Assembly (NCBI GenBank): GCA_033761835.1
Contig: JANRME010000304.1
Coordinates: 5,686-69,685 of the forward strand
DNA length: 64,000 nt
Reading direction: 5' to 3'
Source: Saprospiraceae bacterium
GTDB lineage: Bacteria; Bacteroidota; Bacteroidia; Chitinophagales; Saprospiraceae
This document shows positions 1,478 through 6,304 of the stretch, piece by piece; position 1 is the stretch's first letter; every line of letters starts with the position of its first letter. Below the pieces are notes generated by a model. That model saw nothing but the letters and a program-made list of their open reading frames with translations, searched no databases and was not told where the DNA came from. The position numbers and the translations under genes were made by a program.

Positions 1478-2128
1478 CTATTTCCTACCATCTAAAGCCT
1501 TGCCGCTCAATTGCGCTTTTTTCAGCAGCCCGGCTATGGTCGCTCTGGAATTGCCTTGATAGGTATTCTTGATTATTTTTACCAAACCGATGCTTTTGGC
1601 GTACCATTCAATGATTTCAATAACAAGAACTGATTTATTTTTTTCAGTAAAAACCAATTTGGTTTCTATTTTCAAACAATCGGTAAAGTTGCGCAAGGGC
1701 GTTTGCGCGGTTTCAAATCCTTGTGCATTTACTTCCAAAGTAAGCGTTCCTGCCGTTTCGCCAGTCTTGTAAGGGGTTTTGCTATTATAAATTTTATATT
1801 TTTCAAAAGTAGTTGGATATAATAAAAGCGGATTTGTAAAAACATATTCCTGGTTGGCAAAGCCAAAAGCTTTAAGCTTCAAACCCTCTTGGTTCTTGCT
1901 TTCCAAACGTCTTTGTCCATCGCTTTCGACACGCCACAATTCTTGAGAAGCACTGTCCACCTGAAAATACAAATGATGTAAAGGAAGCTCGGGGCGGGCG
2001 ATATTTTCAAAAATCAGGGAATCGCTTGCTTGGTTGGTCAGATAATCGGCAATAAGAATACCACTCTGTGCAGTCGTTAAACGCCACAATAGCATGAAAA
2101 TCAGGCCCAAACCAAGCTTTTTTATCAT
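1478..2128 (-). CDS. Secreted hypothetical protein
   Basis: 216-aa ORF with an N-terminal signal peptide (MIKKLGLGLIFMLLWRLTTAQS). Its start overlaps the stop of the upstream FKBP gene by 4 nt (2125-2128), which suggests an operon. Confidence 0.6.
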   Translation of the reverse strand: MIKKLGLGLIFMLLWRLTTAQSGILIADYLTNQASDSLIFENIARPELPLHHLYFQVDSASQELWRVESDGQRRLESKNQEGLKLKAFGFANQEYVFTNPLLLYPTTFEKYKIYNSKTPYKTGETAGTLTLEVNAQGFETAQTPLRNFTDCLKIETKLVFTEKNKSVLVIEIIEWYAKSIGLVKIIKNTYQGNSRATIAGLLKKAQLSGKALDGRK

Positions 2129-2583
2129 AAATAATCTACCAATTCGATTTCAAAAATAAGCACAGAGTTAGCAGGTACACTGCTTGTTCCTGTTGCGCCA
2201 TAGCCCAAGCTTGAAGGTATAAAAAATGTGCCTTTTCCGCCTCTCTTGAGTTTTGGAATGCCGATTTGCCAACCGGCTATGAGTGTGGTCAATTGAAATG
2301 GACGCGCTTGATTACCAGGCGTTTGATCAAAAACGGTGCCGTCCAATAGATAACCTTTGTATTTTACAATCACATTGGAAGTGGGAGAAGGAAAGCCGCC
2401 AACGCCGGGTTCGGTGATGATATAATATATACCCGAAGAATCTGCTGTGGCGTTAAGGTTATTATCTCTTAGGTATTGTTCGATTTTTTGCTTATCAATT
2501 GGGTCTTGATCGGGTTCGTTTTTCTCTTTGTCACAAGCGAAAATCGTGATTCCCAATAAAGCTAAGAATATCCATTTTTTCAT
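2125..2583 (-). CDS. FKBP-type peptidyl-prolyl cis-trans isomerase, lipoprotein
   Basis: FKBP_C signature (VKYKGYLLDGTVFDQT ... GWQIGIPKLKRGGKGTFFIPSSLGYG ... VLIFEIELVD). The start is placed at the internal ATG (CAT at 2581-2583), giving MKKWIFLALLGITIFAC, a signal peptide with a lipobox. Confidence 0.85.
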   Translation of the reverse strand: MKKWIFLALLGITIFACDKEKNEPDQDPIDKQKIEQYLRDNNLNATADSSGIYYIITEPGVGGFPSPTSNVIVKYKGYLLDGTVFDQTPGNQARPFQLTTLIAGWQIGIPKLKRGGKGTFFIPSSLGYGATGTSSVPANSVLIFEIELVDYL

Positions 2584-2704
2584 GTTCGGTCTTTTTTGCG
2601 AAACGCAAAGGTAAGCAATAGCGCTGTTTTGGAATAGCAGAAATATACTTTTATGCTGGTTTGTCAAATGGCAGTCAGGAAGGGTAAATGTAATAACTAT
2701 AATA

Positions 2705-2741
2705 AAATAATCGGATAAGTTTTTTGAACCTATCCGATTAT
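2705..2741 (-). terminator. Hairpin downstream of paralog P1
   Basis: 12-bp arms aataatcggata (2705-2716) and tatccgattatt (2730-2741) with a 13-nt loop. The flank is AT-rich with no strong T-run. Confidence 0.35.
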
Positions 2742-2769
2742 TATAATCTTTAGGAATATTATAATAAAA

Positions 2770-3234
2770 TTATGGCAATGTATTAATATCTACTACTCTA
2801 TGATAAGTAGCAAGCCCATATCCTTTATAAACATTCTTTATTTCGATGGGGGCAGGTAGCTTTGGATCAAGAGGATAAGTGGTCAAACTTAATTGTTCAT
2901 CCCCATCAAAATATATGGCTTGAGTTCTCCAAATAAATTTTTCGTAATTATACCTGTAATAAACTTTTCCTCGACCTAAAATTTTTTCTTGATCGAGTAA
3001 AGGCGTTTCGCTTTGTAATACAAAAGATTTTCCTTTACCACTATTATCGGTTTCTAATAGTAGAACAACACCTTCTTTATAAGGCACGAGTCGAGCAAAG
3101 CCTTCAAATACTGTGTATTCGTCATTCTTATCAAATTTAGAAAAATCAAAACGTTCTGTAAGATTTAATTTTTCTTCTGTTTTGCAGGAAAGTAGTCCTG
3201 CCAGTAATAGTAAAGATAATACATAATTTTTCAT
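2770..3234 (-). CDS. Paralog P1 of the lipoprotein family; N-terminal module only, no Cys-rich tail
   Basis: 154 aa. Signal peptide plus lipobox (LLLLAGLLSC). It shares blocks with the next three genes (EYTVFEGFARLVP, FVLQSETPLL..EKILGRGKVYYR, YFDGDEQLSL, GYGLA..VVDIN) and ends at ...VVDINTLP, exactly where the Cys-rich tail begins in the others. Confidence 0.75.
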   Translation of the reverse strand: MKNYVLSLLLLAGLLSCKTEEKLNLTERFDFSKFDKNDEYTVFEGFARLVPYKEGVVLLLETDNSGKGKSFVLQSETPLLDQEKILGRGKVYYRYNYEKFIWRTQAIYFDGDEQLSLTTYPLDPKLPAPIEIKNVYKGYGLATYHRVVDINTLP

Positions 3235-3252
3235 ATCTGTCCAATTTAAAGA

Positions 3253-3855
3253 TTAAGTATTAATACATTCAATACAACAAGCAAAATAACCACTTGAGCA
3301 ATTTACTAAACAATTACAGTTTGGATCTGGGTTACCATTTATTGTACACCAAGGATGCCCCGGACCTCCCTCATCGCAATCACCTCCGCTTTCACTATTT
3401 TCTTTACATTTACAACTTGCATCCCCAGGCTCTTCTAAATAATTTATATCAACCAATTGATTAAATTGAACGAGCCCAAATCCTGTATAGGAGTTTTTTA
3501 GTTTTATGGGAAGAGTAATATCAGAGAGAAATAAACTAAGTTGTTCATTTCCATCAAAATATAATAAATCACCTCTATAATAAATTTTACCTTGACCTAA
3601 TGTTTTCTCTTCTTTAAGAAGAGGCATTGTAGATTGCAGTAAAAAAGTTTTACTTTCTTGCTTATTATTATTTTCAACGAATAAAACAATACCCAATTTA
3701 CTTGGAACTAATTTTGCGAATCCCTGCAAGATAAAATATTCAGACTTAGAATTTAAGTCTGAAAGATCAACCTTTTCGGTAAAGTTTAAGTCTTCTTTTA
3801 GGTTGCAACTAAGCAAGGTTATAAGCCACAATAAAAAATATGATGATTTTTTCAT
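3253..3855 (-). CDS. Paralog P2: lipoprotein with 10-Cys C-terminal tail
   Basis: The start is placed at the internal ATG (CAT at 3853-3855), giving MKKSSYFLLWLITLLSC, a signal peptide with a lipobox. The N-terminal module is homologous to P1/P3/P4. Tail: PGDASCKCKENSESGGDCDEGGPGHPWCTINGNPDPNCNCLVNCSSGYFACCIECINT. Confidence 0.8.
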   Translation of the reverse strand: MKKSSYFLLWLITLLSCNLKEDLNFTEKVDLSDLNSKSEYFILQGFAKLVPSKLGIVLFVENNNKQESKTFLLQSTMPLLKEEKTLGQGKIYYRGDLLYFDGNEQLSLFLSDITLPIKLKNSYTGFGLVQFNQLVDINYLEEPGDASCKCKENSESGGDCDEGGPGHPWCTINGNPDPNCNCLVNCSSGYFACCIECINT

Positions 3856-3896
3856 AATCTTATTTAATAATTTATTTATAAAATGCTTTATTTTTA

Positions 3897-4502
3897 TTAA
3901 TTGCAGTGTATACAACATGCAAAGTAGCCAGAACTACAAGTAACAGAACAATTACATTCATCTGGTGGTGAACCACCACCAACACTACAATCTTGTGCCC
4001 CTGGTCCTCCAGCGTCACAATCACTACCAGAGGAAGCATTTTCACGACATCGACAACTCGCATCACCTGGGTTCTCAAAATAATTTACGTCAATTAATTG
4101 ATTATATCTGGCAAGTCCGAATCCCGAATATGCCTGTTTTAACTTGATAGGTAAGTTAACGTCAGAGAGATATAAACTAAATTGTTCTACACCATCAAAA
4201 TAAAGTAAATTTTCTTGATAGTAAATTTTACCTTGTCCTAAAACTCTTTCTTTATTAAGAAGAGAAACCTTAGTTTGCAACAAAAATGTTTTATTTTCTT
4301 GTTCAGTATTCCCTTCAATAAACAAAATAAGACCCATTTTACTTGGCATCAATCGAACTGAGCCTTGAAAAACCGTATATTCTGGTTTAGAATTTAATTC
4401 AGAAAGATCAATTTGCTTAGTAAATTTTAGATCTTCATTAAGGTTACAGCTTATGCTTATAAGCAAAGTGACCAATACATAAGTATATAATAAAATTTTC
4501 AT
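3897..4502 (-). CDS. Paralog P3: lipoprotein with 10-Cys C-terminal tail
   Basis: 201 aa. Lipobox at LLISISC. Tail: PGDASCRCRENASSGSDCDAGGPGAQDCSVGGGSPPDECNCSVTCSSGYFACCIHCN. Confidence 0.8.
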   Translation of the reverse strand: MKILLYTYVLVTLLISISCNLNEDLKFTKQIDLSELNSKPEYTVFQGSVRLMPSKMGLILFIEGNTEQENKTFLLQTKVSLLNKERVLGQGKIYYQENLLYFDGVEQFSLYLSDVNLPIKLKQAYSGFGLARYNQLIDVNYFENPGDASCRCRENASSGSDCDAGGPGAQDCSVGGGSPPDECNCSVTCSSGYFACCIHCN

Positions 4503-4553
4503 GATGTCAAAGTTTACAATTTAAAATCTCTATAAATGGATTCATTTAAATAA

Positions 4554-4561
4554 CAAAACTA
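4554..4561 (-). promoter_or_regulatory. Candidate Bacteroidota -7 promoter element for P3
   Basis: The plus strand reads caaaacta, which is TAGTTTTG on the minus strand and fits TAnnTTTG. It lies about 50 nt upstream of the P3 ATG at 4502. Confidence 0.3.
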
Positions 4562-4776
4562 AAAATTCCTAGTCTAATGCTTAAGTATTGGATAATCGAT
4601 TAATATGATAATAAAATCATAGATCGAAATAATCCCTGAGAGAATTGAATCTAAAAAACATCACACAAGGGCATTACATAGGTTTCACGGATCCCGCTGA
4701 TTATTGAAAAACCTATCTGCTAAATCTGCGCGATGCAAAGCAAAATTTGTATGAAAGAAAGTTCGATTTAATTTAC

Positions 4777-5373
4777 TTATGGCTTACAATGTTTACAACA
4801 AGCAAATGTGCCACTTGTACAATTATTAATAAAACATGAGCATTCTATACCAGTTCCAACGGAGCAGCCGGATGATCCTGGTCCTCCAGCATCACAATCA
4901 CTTCCACTTTCGCTATTATCAATACACTCACAAGTTGCATCTTCTGGATGAAGATTCTTGAAATCAATAAATTTATTAAATGCAGCAAGCCCAAATCCTG
5001 TATAAGAATTTTTTAGCTTTATGGGAGGAGTAACATCAGAGAGATATAAATTAAATTGTTCATTGCCATCAAAATATAATAAATCACCTCTGAAATAAGC
5101 TTTCCCTTTTCCTAATATCTTTTCCTTATAAAGGGATGAAGATTTAGTCTGTAGTCTAAATGTCTTATCTCCTTGGTCATTTTTACCTTCAAGGTATAAC
5201 ACTATTGCTTTCTGAGTAGGAACTAGTCTAGCAAAGCCTTCGTAAACTTGGTATTCATCATTTGAATTCAATTTGGAAAAATCAACTCGAGTAATACTGG
5301 ATAAATCTTTTTCAAGATTATAGGAAGTAACTCCTGCTATTAATAGCAGAATCATGGAAAGATTGGTAAACAT
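4777..5373 (-). CDS. Paralog P4: secreted protein with 10-Cys tail; lipobox Cys replaced by Tyr
   Basis: 198 aa. The hydrophobic N-terminus MILLLIAGVTSY has TAT (5320-5322) where the paralogs have the lipobox Cys. Tail: PEDATCECIDNSESGSDCDAGGPGSSGCSVGTGIECSCFINNCTSGTFACCKHCKP. Confidence 0.8.
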   Translation of the reverse strand: MFTNLSMILLLIAGVTSYNLEKDLSSITRVDFSKLNSNDEYQVYEGFARLVPTQKAIVLYLEGKNDQGDKTFRLQTKSSSLYKEKILGKGKAYFRGDLLYFDGNEQFNLYLSDVTPPIKLKNSYTGFGLAAFNKFIDFKNLHPEDATCECIDNSESGSDCDAGGPGSSGCSVGTGIECSCFINNCTSGTFACCKHCKP

Positions 5374-5677
5374 AACTATGATGTTTTAAGGGTTAAAGGA
5401 ATTATTACAAAGCTATAGCCTTTTTTTACAAAAAACAAGTAATAGAATGTTAAAATTGAATATTATTTAAACTTTTATAATAGATCTAAGTCAAAACCAT
5501 AGTTTTCAATTGACAATCATCAATTGATGCATGGCGTCTGTTAAAACGGAGGGTGGAGCTTTGGGCGAAGCCCTCTTTGTTTTTACACTTTTCGGCAATT
5601 CCTTTTTTCAAGTTCCGGCAAAAGTTGCTTATTTGCGTTAAATTTGAAGCCATTTTGAATATCAAAAAATTTCAACC

Positions 5678-6304
5678 ATGAAAGATATGTGCGTTTTTTT
5701 GGATCCCGGGCACGGTGCATTGGATAAAAATGGGAATTACGTAACCGCCCCAGCCAAGCAATTTCAACATACTCAAGGTACTTTTCACAATGGACGCTGG
5801 TTTTATGAGGGTGTTTTCAATCGCGTAATGACCAATCGCGTCGCTATGAAATTACAAAGGCTCAATATTCCTTATCTCATCGTCGCCCACGAATATCTGG
5901 ATACACCGCTGGAGTATCGAGTGAATATGGCGAATTGGTATCACCGCAATTTCAAGCCAGGTATTTATATTTCTTTTCATGCGAATGCTGCCAATGGGCA
6001 AGCGCGGGGCTATGAAGTTTATACTTCACCCGGTAAAACCGATTCCGATTCCGTAGCGGAGTTACATTGGAATAATGTAAAAGACTTATTGAGTAGCAAA
6101 ATTTCAATGCGCCCAGACACCGCTGACGGCGATGTCGATAAGGAAGCGAATTTTTATGTATTGCGCAATACCGCGATGCCCGCTATTTTGATTGAGCATT
6201 TGTTTTTTGACAATTTTGAAGACGCAAAGCTGCTGCTGGATGACGAGGTTGTAGATTTATTCGCAGAAGCAACAACGAGAACGATCGTTCAGTGGTTTAA
6301 ATAG
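5678..6304 (+). CDS. N-acetylmuramoyl-L-alanine amidase (Amidase_3-like), no signal peptide
   Basis: Motifs FLDPGHG, ISFHANAANG and ILIEHLFFDN match the Amidase_3 Zn-ligand blocks. The N-terminus MKDMCVFLDPGHG has no leader. Confidence 0.75.
   Translation: MKDMCVFLDPGHGALDKNGNYVTAPAKQFQHTQGTFHNGRWFYEGVFNRVMTNRVAMKLQRLNIPYLIVAHEYLDTPLEYRVNMANWYHRNFKPGIYISFHANAANGQARGYEVYTSPGKTDSDSVAELHWNNVKDLLSSKISMRPDTADGDVDKEANFYVLRNTAMPAILIEHLFFDNFEDAKLLLDDEVVDLFAEATTRTIVQWFK

What the first reader, a model, noticed from the sequence alone, without database searches (positions are those of the whole stretch)
3253..4947. Conserved 10-cysteine C-terminal tail with fixed spacing on three paralogs
P2, P3 and P4 each end in a 56-58-aa tail (coding ~3256-3429, 3900-4070 and 4780-4947). 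All three fit the spacing C-x-C-x9-C-x9-C-x(7-10)-C-x-C-x(3-4)-C-x6-C-C-x2-C.

The inter-Cys segments are Gly/Ser/Asp/Pro-rich (DCD(A/E)GGPG is invariant). The extreme C-terminus reads (S/T)SG(Y/T)FACC(I/K)(E/H)C. That makes about 18% Cys in a lipid-anchored or secreted context.

Three readings are possible: a 5-disulfide knottin/granulin-like mini-domain, a metal-binding (metallothionein-like) tail, or a cleavable Cys-rich peptide carried on a large pro-domain. I do not recognise the motif. The boundary (..VDINY(L/F)E(E/N)PGDASC) is sharp and coincides with the end of tail-less P1, which indicates a modular unit.
Basis: seen in the sequence. Interest (0 to 1): 0.65.

Follow-up and report, generated by a model that had tools for sequence, protein, structure and literature searches.

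The report
Unannotated disulfide-rich tail on tandem lipoproteins
Three neighbouring lipoprotein genes end in a real, conserved cysteine-rich mini-domain that belongs to a so far unannotated family, which in other bacteria is also made as a small secreted peptide from bacteriocin-like gene clusters.

Summary
P2 (3253-3855), P3 (3897-4502) and P4 (4777-5373), all on the minus strand, each end in a 56-58 aa tail with 10 Cys at the stated spacing. P1 (2770-3234) lacks the tail.

The tail is not an orphan motif. A profile search found about 100 distant cluster representatives, mostly 200-250 aa signal-peptide proteins or lipoproteins, with the same N-domain plus an 8-Cys core: CxC / C-x2-GG-x-G-x3-C / C-x3-C / x6-CC. 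The window adds a lineage-specific fifth Cys pair.

Several results argue for an exported, all-disulfide, autonomous fold and against metal binding:
- Cys counts are even in about 90% of members.
- Extra or missing Cys come in pairs.
- The CxC element sits either N- or C-terminal.
- GG-leader peptides carry a circularly permuted version.

AlphaFold2 with 99 sequences gives pLDDT 90, with a four-stranded tail. No PDB or BFVD fold match was found, and there is no Pfam, NCBIfam or PDB sequence hit.

Stand-alone versions lie beside thiol-disulfide oxidoreductases, a C39-peptidase ABC exporter, or DUF5128 propellers. The window has none of these partners. The biological role is therefore inferred: a stable extracellular effector or binding head, possibly bacteriocin-like.

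The parts
4777..5373 (-). P4: 198-aa paralog with N-domain plus 10-Cys tail. The signal peptide has Tyr in place of the lipobox Cys (..AGVTS|YNLEKD), so it is probably cleaved by signal peptidase I and soluble.
4780..4947 (-). P4 Cys-rich tail (56 aa): PEDATCECIDNSESGSDCDAGGPGSSGCSVGTGIECSCFINNCTSGTFACCKHCKP
3897..4502 (-). P3: 201-aa predicted lipoprotein (..ISISC|NLNEDL) with N-domain plus 10-Cys tail. This is the sequence that was modelled.
3900..4070 (-). P3 Cys-rich tail (57 aa). AF2 places strands at residues 149-154 (CxC), 171-176, 183-189 (CNCSVTC) and 193-198 (GYFACC). Block-mean pLDDT in the tail is 72-96.
3253..3855 (-). P2: 200-aa predicted lipoprotein (..TLLSC|NLKEDL) with N-domain plus 10-Cys tail.
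3256..3429 (-). P2 Cys-rich tail (58 aa).
2770..3234 (-). P1: 154-aa tail-less paralog (lipobox ..GLLSC|KTEEKL). It has two insertions in the N-domain relative to P2-P4. Another tail-less relative, P0004, exists in a metagenome.
5408..5415 (-). TAGCTTTG, a Bacteroidota-type -7 promoter motif (TAnnTTTG), 35 nt upstream of the P4 start.
   Evidence: the motif definition is from general knowledge
4554..4561 (-). TAGTTTTG, a Bacteroidota-type -7 motif, 52 nt upstream of the P3 start. No such motif lies directly before P2 or P1, so P3-P2-P1 are probably one transcript.
2706..2742 (-). 16-bp stem-loop followed by a T-run, 28 nt after the P1 stop. It is a likely terminator closing the P3-P2-P1 unit.

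Best explanation
The tail is a copy of an unannotated, autonomously folding, disulfide-rich extracellular mini-domain of about 45-55 aa.

Its core has four elements in a fixed cyclic order:
- CxC
- C-x2-GG-x-G-x3-C
- C-x3-C (usually CSVxC)
- x6 then CC (usually GYYACC)

These give eight Cys that form four disulfides. The window paralogs add a fifth pair. After Sec export, P1-P3 are lipidated and P4 probably is not. The tail is oxidised in the periplasm and forms a compact four-stranded beta unit at the C-terminus of a roughly 125-aa beta-rich N-domain.

Shown: the sequence family, Cys conservation and parity, modularity (including permutation), a confident model, and the absence of any known-family match.

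Inferred: the disulfide bonding itself. The biological role is also inferred. The role I consider most likely is a protease-resistant effector or binding head displayed on, or released from, the cell envelope and used in interactions with other cells (bacteriocin-like antagonism or recognition). The reason is that the same module, on its own, is the core of GG-leader peptides encoded in a locus with a C39-peptidase ABC exporter, and of NVEALA-leader and Sec-signal mini-proteins that sit beside dedicated thiol-disulfide oxidoreductases.
For: Family. A full HMMER profile search of 1.84 billion representatives gave 101 hits. Nearly all are 140-260 aa and most end at profile position 192-195 of 196. 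Their sequences share F.LQT and GYGL motifs in the N-domain and the Cys core. The invariant columns are C162, G165, G166, C172, C185, C196 and C197 of P3.

Disulfide reading.
- 106 of 118 parsed members have an even Cys count: 42 with CxC N-terminal and 28 with CxC C-terminal (8 Cys each), and the rest mostly 10 or 12.
- Five mini-proteins that lost the first Cys of CSVxC (replaced by Y or H) also lost the second Cys of CxC (P0118, P0119, P0121, P0127, P0128).
- The N-domain is usually Cys-free.

Autonomy.
- Mini-proteins exist that are only a signal peptide plus the module (P0093, P0097, P0119, P0127).
- T9SS-tailed versions exist (P0010).
- GG-leader peptides (P0120, P0123, P0129 and its neighbour) match the tail profile as two swapped halves. 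They match full length only when the core is duplicated in tandem, which indicates circular permutation.

Structure. AF2 with 99 sequences gave mean pLDDT 90.3 and pTM 0.81, with four strands in the tail, against pLDDT 56 with 4 sequences.

Context of relatives.
- L020: TlpA-like thioredoxin, C39-ABC exporter, AprE/HlyD-type protein, GG-leader module peptide, plus another GG-leader Cys-rich ORF.
- L021/L022: NVEALA-leader module, DUF5128 propeller, then a 207-aa protein with an SCRDC (CxxC) motif.
- L007: thioredoxin, module, DUF5128.
- L009: module, DsbA, 382-aa protein.
- L012: DsbA-like, full-length member, NHL/DUF5128-like protein, thioredoxin.

The thiol-oxidoreductase plus GG-peptidase transporter layout parallels bacteroidetocin loci (PMC6671954).

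Selection. dN/dS is 0.15-0.5 with saturated dS between the window paralogs.
Against: - No experiment and no model coordinates were available, so disulfide connectivity and tail/N-domain packing are not established.
- About 10% of members have odd Cys counts. Some of these are parsing artefacts, but some are real, for example P0112.
- The window (64 kb) holds no relative of the thioredoxin, DsbA, C39-ABC, HlyD-type or DUF5128 partner proteins by phmmer.
- Most full-length family members sit as orphan genes among housekeeping genes: Kordia, Fibrella, Flavobacterium urocaniciphilum and Acidobacteriota loci. The bacteriocin-like context therefore applies to the mini-proteins and only one full-length member (L012).
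- No processing site is evident at the N-domain/tail boundary.
- The C39-ABC exporter association rests on one locus. A second GG-leader locus (L025, 4.5 kb) shows only tandem precursors.
Confidence: 0.55

Rival explanations
1. The tail is a purely structural cap. It is a disulfide staple that stabilises the N-domain of an envelope lipoprotein whose function (ligand binding, or inhibition of a protease) resides in the N-domain. The tail has no activity of its own.
For: The N-domain and tail co-occur in about 95% of profile hits. pTM of 0.81 for the whole chain suggests one compact unit. The tail-less proteins P1 and P0004 carry compensating insertions in the N-domain. Most full-length members are orphan genes without export or oxidation partners. 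There is a weak profile similarity of the N-terminal part to the Tannerella lipoprotein protease inhibitor potempin A (8b2m, E=0.088).
Against: The module exists alone behind three kinds of leader and in permuted form. This is hard to explain if it only staples a partner domain. The potempin match is not significant, includes the signal peptide, and was not recovered by Foldseek.
Confidence: 0.25
2. The tail is a pro-peptide cargo. The N-domain acts as a carrier or intramolecular chaperone, and the tail is cut off near ..NPGD|ASC.. and released as a free Cys-rich peptide.
For: There is a sharp boundary and a pLDDT dip at residues 141-150. Free versions of the module are made from leader peptides elsewhere. 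P4 has lost its lipid anchor.
Against: There is no conserved cleavage motif at the boundary across the family. No peptidase gene is linked in the window or in other full-length loci.
Confidence: 0.12
3. The tail is a metal-binding (metallothionein-like or Zn-ribbon-like) element that buffers or senses Cu, Zn or Cd in the envelope.
For: The tail is 18% Cys with CxC and CC motifs, as in metallothioneins. This is a sequence observation.
Against: There is no Pfam hit, including to metallothionein families, at E<=10. The protein is exported. Cys counts are even (6, 8, 10, 12) rather than multiples of four, with paired gain and loss. No His or CxxC knuckles are conserved. DsbA/TlpA-type neighbours in relatives point to oxidation.
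Confidence: 0.05
4. The tail is a RiPP-type substrate, whose Cys are converted to thioethers or other crosslinks by a dedicated enzyme, possibly the DUF5128 propeller.
For: Leader-peptide versions and a recurrent, uncharacterised DUF5128/NHL-like neighbour occur in four loci.
Against: No radical-SAM, LanM-type or YcaO-type genes were found in any of the loci read. The window proteins use Sec/lipobox signals and have no such neighbours.
Confidence: 0.03

Closest known systems
Bacteroidetocins (class IIf bacteriocins of Bacteroidetes; PMC6671954)
   Same: Relatives of the tail (P0123 in L020) are GG-leader peptides. They are encoded with a thiol oxidoreductase and an ABC transporter carrying a double-glycine (C39) peptidase domain. 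That is the layout described for bacteroidetocins, whose disulfides are attributed to the linked oxidoreductase.
   Different: Bacteroidetocins are 42-aa peptides with 4 Cys and share no sequence similarity with this module. The module here has 8 Cys and a different motif set. The window proteins are about 200-aa Sec/lipobox proteins without a GG leader, transporter or oxidoreductase nearby. No toxicity has been tested.
Disulfide-rich mini-domains (hevein/CBM18, knottins, granulins, bacterial cis-defensins; PMC11561630)
   Same: They share a 40-55 aa size, 6-12 Cys, Gly/Ser-rich loops, an exported location and beta-rich cores. CxxxC and CxC motifs, as in CS-alpha-beta defensins, are present. 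There is a conserved aromatic pair, as in hevein.
   Different: There is no Pfam or PDB sequence hit and no Foldseek hit. The CSVxC segment is predicted as a strand, not a helix. There is one CC pair against granulin's four. The 74 bacterial defensins reported in PMC11561630 came from Proteobacteria, Acidobacteria and Actinobacteria, not Bacteroidota.
NVEALA (PF14055) small proteins with DUF5128 (PF17170) six-bladed propellers
   Same: Two relatives (P0125, P0131) carry an NVEALA-type N-terminus. P0125 is followed directly by a DUF5128 gene. The Sec-signal mini-protein P0119 is also followed by a DUF5128 gene.
   Different: The window proteins have no NVEALA region and no DUF5128 neighbour. 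Neither Pfam family has an assigned function, and no paper was found.
Bacteroidota surface lipoproteins with a lipoprotein export signal (PMC5080379)
   Same: P1-P3 have lipoboxes followed by acidic residues (CKTEEK, CNLKED, CNLNED). Many homologs read CS(N/T)D(E/D), like the SDDDD, SDDFE and K-(D/E)2 signals.
   Different: The position of the acidic pair is shifted by one residue in P2 and P3. Surface exposure is not shown. P4 lacks the lipidated Cys.
Thrombospondin type-1 repeat
   Same: It shares a local 'CSVTCG.G' string.
   Different: The match has E=1.3 only. There is no WxxW or Arg ladder, and the Cys number is different.

Membership tests
New 8-Cys module family (defined here) | C-x2-GG-x-G-x3-C, then a loop, then C-x3-C, then about x6, then CC, plus one CxC element, in one cyclic order | tested here: met
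   All three window tails match. The invariant columns are C162, G165, G166, C172, C185, C196 and C197.
New 8-Cys module family (defined here) | The protein is exported (Sec, lipobox, GG-leader, NVEALA or T9SS contexts) | tested here: met
   Signal peptides or lipoboxes were read in P1-P4 and the homologs. This was by eye; no predictor was run.
Metallothionein-like / metal-binding tail | Match to a metallothionein family model | tested here: not met
   No Pfam hit at E<=10 for the three tails.
Metallothionein-like / metal-binding tail | Reduced thiolates coordinating metal | not testable with these tools
   Indirect evidence is against it: even Cys counts that are not multiples of four, paired gain and loss, and export.
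Hevein/CBM18, granulin, knottin | Family HMM or fold match with the characteristic Cys framework | tested here: not met
   No Pfam hit in the 3 tails or the 99 members. Foldseek against PDB gave best E 0.011 and TM<0.2.
CS-alpha-beta (cis-) defensins | CxxxC on an alpha-helix bonded to CxC on a beta-strand | tested here: not met
   Both motifs are present in the sequence, but AF2 puts CNCSVTC in a strand (183-189) and predicts no helix in the tail.
GG-leader class II bacteriocin precursors (bacteroidetocin-like) | N-terminal double-glycine leader | tested here: not met
   The window proteins have Sec/lipobox signals. The relatives P0120, P0123 and P0129 do have GG leaders.
GG-leader class II bacteriocin precursors (bacteroidetocin-like) | Linked C39-peptidase ABC transporter and thiol oxidoreductase | tested here: not met
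   No relatives were found in the 64-kb window by phmmer. The feature is met for relative P0123 in L020.
GG-leader class II bacteriocin precursors (bacteroidetocin-like) | Antibacterial activity | not testable with these tools
   This needs overlay or dot assays.
NVEALA (PF14055) | Pfam model match | tested here: not met
   No hit for P1-P4. Only the mini-proteins P0125 and P0131 carry it.
Bacteroidota surface-exposed lipoproteins | Lipobox Cys | tested here: met
   P1 LLSC, P2 LLSC and P3 SISC have it. P4 has TSY and does not.
Bacteroidota surface-exposed lipoproteins | Export signal of acidic residues at about +3 to +5 after the Cys | tested here: inconclusive
   P1 reads CKTEEK. P2 and P3 have ED at +5/+6. 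The published signals are position-sensitive (PMC5080379).
RiPP precursors with Cys crosslinks (SCIFF/ranthipeptide, lanthipeptide) | Linked modifying enzyme (radical SAM, LanM and similar) | tested here: not met
   None appears among the precomputed Pfam families listed for called genes in the contigs returned by the look-up of encoding contigs (L001-L012, L020-L025). Pfam on the window covered only the genes flanking the paralog array.

The most novel reading that the evidence does not exclude
The module defines a new class of 8-Cys (four-disulfide) secreted effector peptides of Bacteroidota and Acidobacteriota that exists in three circular permutants. It is delivered by at least four routes: a GG-leader with a C39-ABC exporter, an NVEALA leader with a DUF5128 propeller, a plain Sec signal, and a lipoprotein or T9SS fusion. 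On this reading, the window's tandem lipoproteins would be cell-surface-tethered (and in P4 soluble) versions used for contact-dependent antagonism or kin recognition.
Probability: 0.22. Interest if true: 0.8.

Novelty: new variant of a known kind. Interest (0 to 1): 0.6.

Why it matters
Disulfide-rich mini-proteins are prized scaffolds and frequent toxins or signals, yet very few bacterial families are described, and hardly any from Bacteroidota. This module matches no model in the Pfam and NCBIfam copies searched and has no solved-structure relative. It nevertheless recurs across two phyla, behind several export systems and in permuted forms. That gives a defined sequence signature for mining, and a set of natural variants for structure and activity work: 6, 8, 10 and 12 Cys forms and three permutants.

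It also gives the first functional handle on NVEALA/DUF5128 cassettes, which are common in Bacteroidota and have no known role.

Tried and rejected
- The word-index homolog search with P3 alone found only the window's own proteins.
- The search for related loci with the four paralogs found nothing in GTDB genomes or JGI metagenomes. A narrow 'CGTGYYAC' alignment worked but samples only one sub-clade.
- The exact-sequence contig look-up for P3 returned nothing.
- Pfam and NCBIfam on the paralogs, the tails and 99 members gave no family.
- PDB sequence searches gave only chance-level hits: leptin receptor tag region, TSR 'CSVTCG', potempin A at E=0.088 and Csx28. All were rejected as non-significant.
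- AF2 with 4 sequences was unusable (pLDDT 56).
- Foldseek against PDB and BFVD gave only PCNA-like noise, with TM about 0.18.
- Literature string searches for GYYACC and similar returned only degenerate primers. DUF5128/NVEALA returned nothing relevant. General searches for Cys-rich Bacteroidota proteins returned nothing relevant.
- The bacterial defensin paper describes a different fold and different taxa.
- The idea that the downstream FKBP lipoprotein is co-transcribed was dropped. A strong hairpin terminator follows P1, and the FKBP gene has its own -7 motif.
- The sigma-70 promoter scan was no better than shuffles.
Full report
**1. What is in the window**

Positions 2770-5373 of the minus strand carry four tandem paralogs.

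| Gene | Coordinates | Length | Tail |
|---|---|---|---|
| P4 | 5373..4777 | 198 aa | yes |
| P3 | 4502..3897 | 201 aa | yes |
| P2 | 3855..3253 | 200 aa | yes |
| P1 | 3234..2770 | 154 aa | no |

- The longer mechanical ORF for P2, starting at 3918, overlaps the end of P3. The paralog alignment does not support it.
- P1-P3 start with lipoprotein signal peptides (LLSC, LLSC, SISC). P4 has Tyr at the lipobox position (VTSY) and probably is a signal-peptidase-I substrate.
P1 stops where the tails begin.
- The 2-6 kb stretch has 34% G+C against about 42% around it.
- Bacteroidota-type -7 motifs (TAnnTTTG) precede P4 and P3 but not P2 or P1. A 16-bp hairpin with a T-run follows P1. The likely units are therefore P4 alone and P3-P2-P1 together.
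- Between paralogs, dS is saturated (0.85-2.4) and dN/dS is 0.15-0.5 in both the N-domain and the tail. All Cys are retained. These are old duplicates under purifying selection.

**2. The tail is part of a wider, unannotated family**

- The word-index search found only the window's own proteins. Pfam, NCBIfam and PDB sequence searches were empty.
- A full HMMER profile search of 1.84 billion cluster representatives returned 101 hits.
- Nearly all hits are 140-260 aa proteins with a signal peptide or lipobox. They have an N-domain with F.LQT and GYGL motifs and a C-terminal Cys module.
- In a 99-sequence alignment, the invariant columns are five Cys and the two Gly of 'GG'. A further Cys (C189) and a Gly (G168) are conserved in at least 90% of sequences.
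- The core is C-x2-GG-x-G-x3-C, a variable loop, C-x3-C (mostly CSVxC), x6, then CC (mostly GYYACC), plus one CxC.
- Named members are all 'hypothetical protein' with no Pfam domain: Kordia sp. SMS9 KORDIASMS9_02637, an uncultured Fibrella, a Bacteroidota MAG and Algoriphagus aquimarinus.
- Genome scans added Flavobacterium urocaniciphilum DSM 27078, a Flavobacteriaceae MAG, and Bryobacteraceae and Vicinamibacteraceae (Acidobacteriota) MAGs.
- The fetched loci range from 31 to 66% G+C.

**3. Evidence that the Cys form disulfides in an autonomous fold**

(a) Parity.
- Of 118 parsed members, 106 have an even number of tail Cys.
- 42 have CxC upstream and none downstream. 28 have the reverse. Both groups total 8 Cys.
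- Members with 10 or 12 Cys add Cys in pairs at matching places.
- A cruder count gave 98 of 115 even.

(b) Paired loss. Five mini-proteins that replace the first Cys of CSVxC by Tyr or His also replace the second Cys of CxC, which leaves 6 Cys.

(c) The window pattern. One extra Cys lies two residues before CSVxC and one lies at the very end (CCxxC). This pattern occurs only in the three window paralogs. In the model these fall on the facing ends of the last hairpin (strands 183-189 and 193-198). A C183-C200 bond in P3 is therefore plausible, but this is an inference.

(d) Modularity.
- The module occurs alone behind Sec signals (P0093, P0097, P0119, P0127).
- It occurs before a T9SS sorting domain (P0010).
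- It occurs behind NVEALA-type N-termini (P0125, P0131).
- It occurs behind double-glycine leaders (P0120, P0123, P0129 and its tandem neighbour).

(e) Circular permutation.
- In the GG-leader peptides the order is CSVxC..CC..CxC..C-GG-G-C.
- A profile of ordinary tails matches them as two swapped halves (profile positions 31-49, then 2-27). It matches end to end (2-49) only when the core is duplicated in tandem.
- N-terminal CxC, C-terminal CxC and the GG-leader order are thus three openings of one cyclic order. This implies adjacent termini and a self-contained fold.

(f) Structure.
- With four sequences AF2 failed (pLDDT 56).
- With 99 sequences it gave mean pLDDT 90.3 and pTM 0.81, with four strands in the tail.
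- Foldseek found nothing in PDB or BFVD: best E 0.011 in PDB and 0.086 in BFVD, with TM normalised to the query at most 0.23.
- Profile searches of PDB gave only chance-level strings.

**4. Genomic context**

Most full-length members are single genes among unrelated or housekeeping neighbours. This holds for Kordia and its syntenic MAG, Fibrella, L013-L019 and the window.

The mini-proteins and one full-length member are different.

| Locus | Gene order |
|---|---|
| L020 | TlpA-like thioredoxin, C39-peptidase ABC transporter, AprE/HlyD-type protein, then the GG-leader module peptide; a second GG-leader Cys-rich ORF of another type lies upstream of the thioredoxin gene (923-1141) |
| L021/L022 | NVEALA-leader module, DUF5128 propeller, then a 207-aa protein with an SCRDC (CxxC) motif |
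| L007 | thioredoxin, module, DUF5128 |
| L009/L010 | module, DsbA, 382-aa protein |
| L012 | DsbA-like, full-length member, NHL/DUF5128-like 388-aa protein, thioredoxin |
| L011, L025 | tandem mini-protein genes |

The L020 layout parallels bacteroidetocin loci, where a thiol oxidoreductase and a double-glycine peptidase transporter flank a GG-leader toxin (PMC6671954).

The window contains no relative of any of these partner proteins by phmmer.

**5. Interpretation**

The structural claim is well supported: an exported, four- or five-disulfide, autonomous mini-domain of a new family.

Metal binding is unlikely on three grounds:
- Cys counts are even but not multiples of four.
- The protein is exported.
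- Relatives have oxidoreductase neighbours.

The biological role is inferred. The stand-alone module is produced by systems that typically export bacteriocins or signalling peptides. I therefore favour an effector or binding head that the window's proteins carry on a lipoprotein (P2, P3) or as a soluble secreted protein (P4). The acidic residues after the lipobox resemble Bacteroidota lipoprotein export signals but are shifted, so surface exposure is open (PMC5080379).

The main rival is that, in the 200-aa proteins, the tail merely stabilises the N-domain. The tail-less P1 and P0004 carry N-domain insertions that may compensate for the missing tail. Proteolytic release of the tail is possible but has no specific support.

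**6. Novelty**

No Pfam, NCBIfam, PDB or literature record of the module was found. The general kind, small disulfide-rich secreted domains and GG-leader peptides with a linked oxidoreductase, is known. The family, its permutants and its fusion to lipoproteins are not. I rate it a new variant of a known kind, with moderate-to-high interest.

Noticed in passing
window 5302-5373 (P4 N-terminus): P4 has Tyr where P1-P3 have the lipidated Cys (VTSYN against LLSCN). One paralog has therefore switched from a lipoprotein to a probable soluble secreted form. The ORF is otherwise intact and under purifying selection.
   Followed up: partly
window 2001-6000: The paralog array lies in a 34% G+C stretch flanked by about 42% G+C. 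This could mean a compositional island, or simply AT-rich fast-evolving genes.
   Followed up: no
window 2125-2583 and 1478-2128 (minus strand): Directly downstream lie an FKBP-type peptidyl-prolyl isomerase lipoprotein (Pfam E 6e-19) and a weakly DUF3108-like secreted protein. They are separated from P1 by a strong hairpin terminator and have their own -7 motif at 2606-2613, so they are probably not co-transcribed.
   Followed up: partly
L020 923-1141 and 3-191: The same bacteriocin-like locus encodes a second GG-leader peptide with a different Cys-rich core (MLMKYKDFKTMTANEMKNIIGG|TEPIEPRVKCGTCPSS...). It also holds a further Cys-rich ORF fragment, so this is a multi-precursor cluster.
   Followed up: no
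L001 9290-9868 and L004 9663-10244: About 600 nt (L001) to 1 kb (L004) downstream of the Kordia-type family member sits a conserved 192-193 aa lipoprotein. It has its own, unrelated Cys-rich C-terminus (..ITCTTSECSHESTGCAVKYD..YCSPCANGGKC..) and no Pfam match.
   Followed up: no
L007 6334-7467, L021 923-2083, L012 6775-7941, L009 5700-6848: A 377-388 aa protein (DUF5128 six-bladed propeller, or NHL-like) follows the module gene in four unrelated loci. In three it follows directly, and in L009 a DsbA gene lies between them. A thioredoxin-fold or CxxC-motif gene is also present in each. This looks like a recurrent cassette of unknown function that includes the NVEALA family.
   Followed up: partly
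profile of A3 against PDB 8b2m_A: There is a weak (E=0.088) similarity between the N-terminal 120 positions of the family profile and Tannerella forsythia potempin A, a lipoprotein protease inhibitor. It includes the signal peptide and was not recovered by Foldseek.
   Followed up: partly
window, whole: The Bacteroidota promoter pattern TTTG-N17-21-TAnnTTTG occurs 9 times against 3.65 expected from shuffles. Only 1 of 100 shuffles reached 9. This is consistent with a Bacteroidota origin of the window.
   Followed up: no
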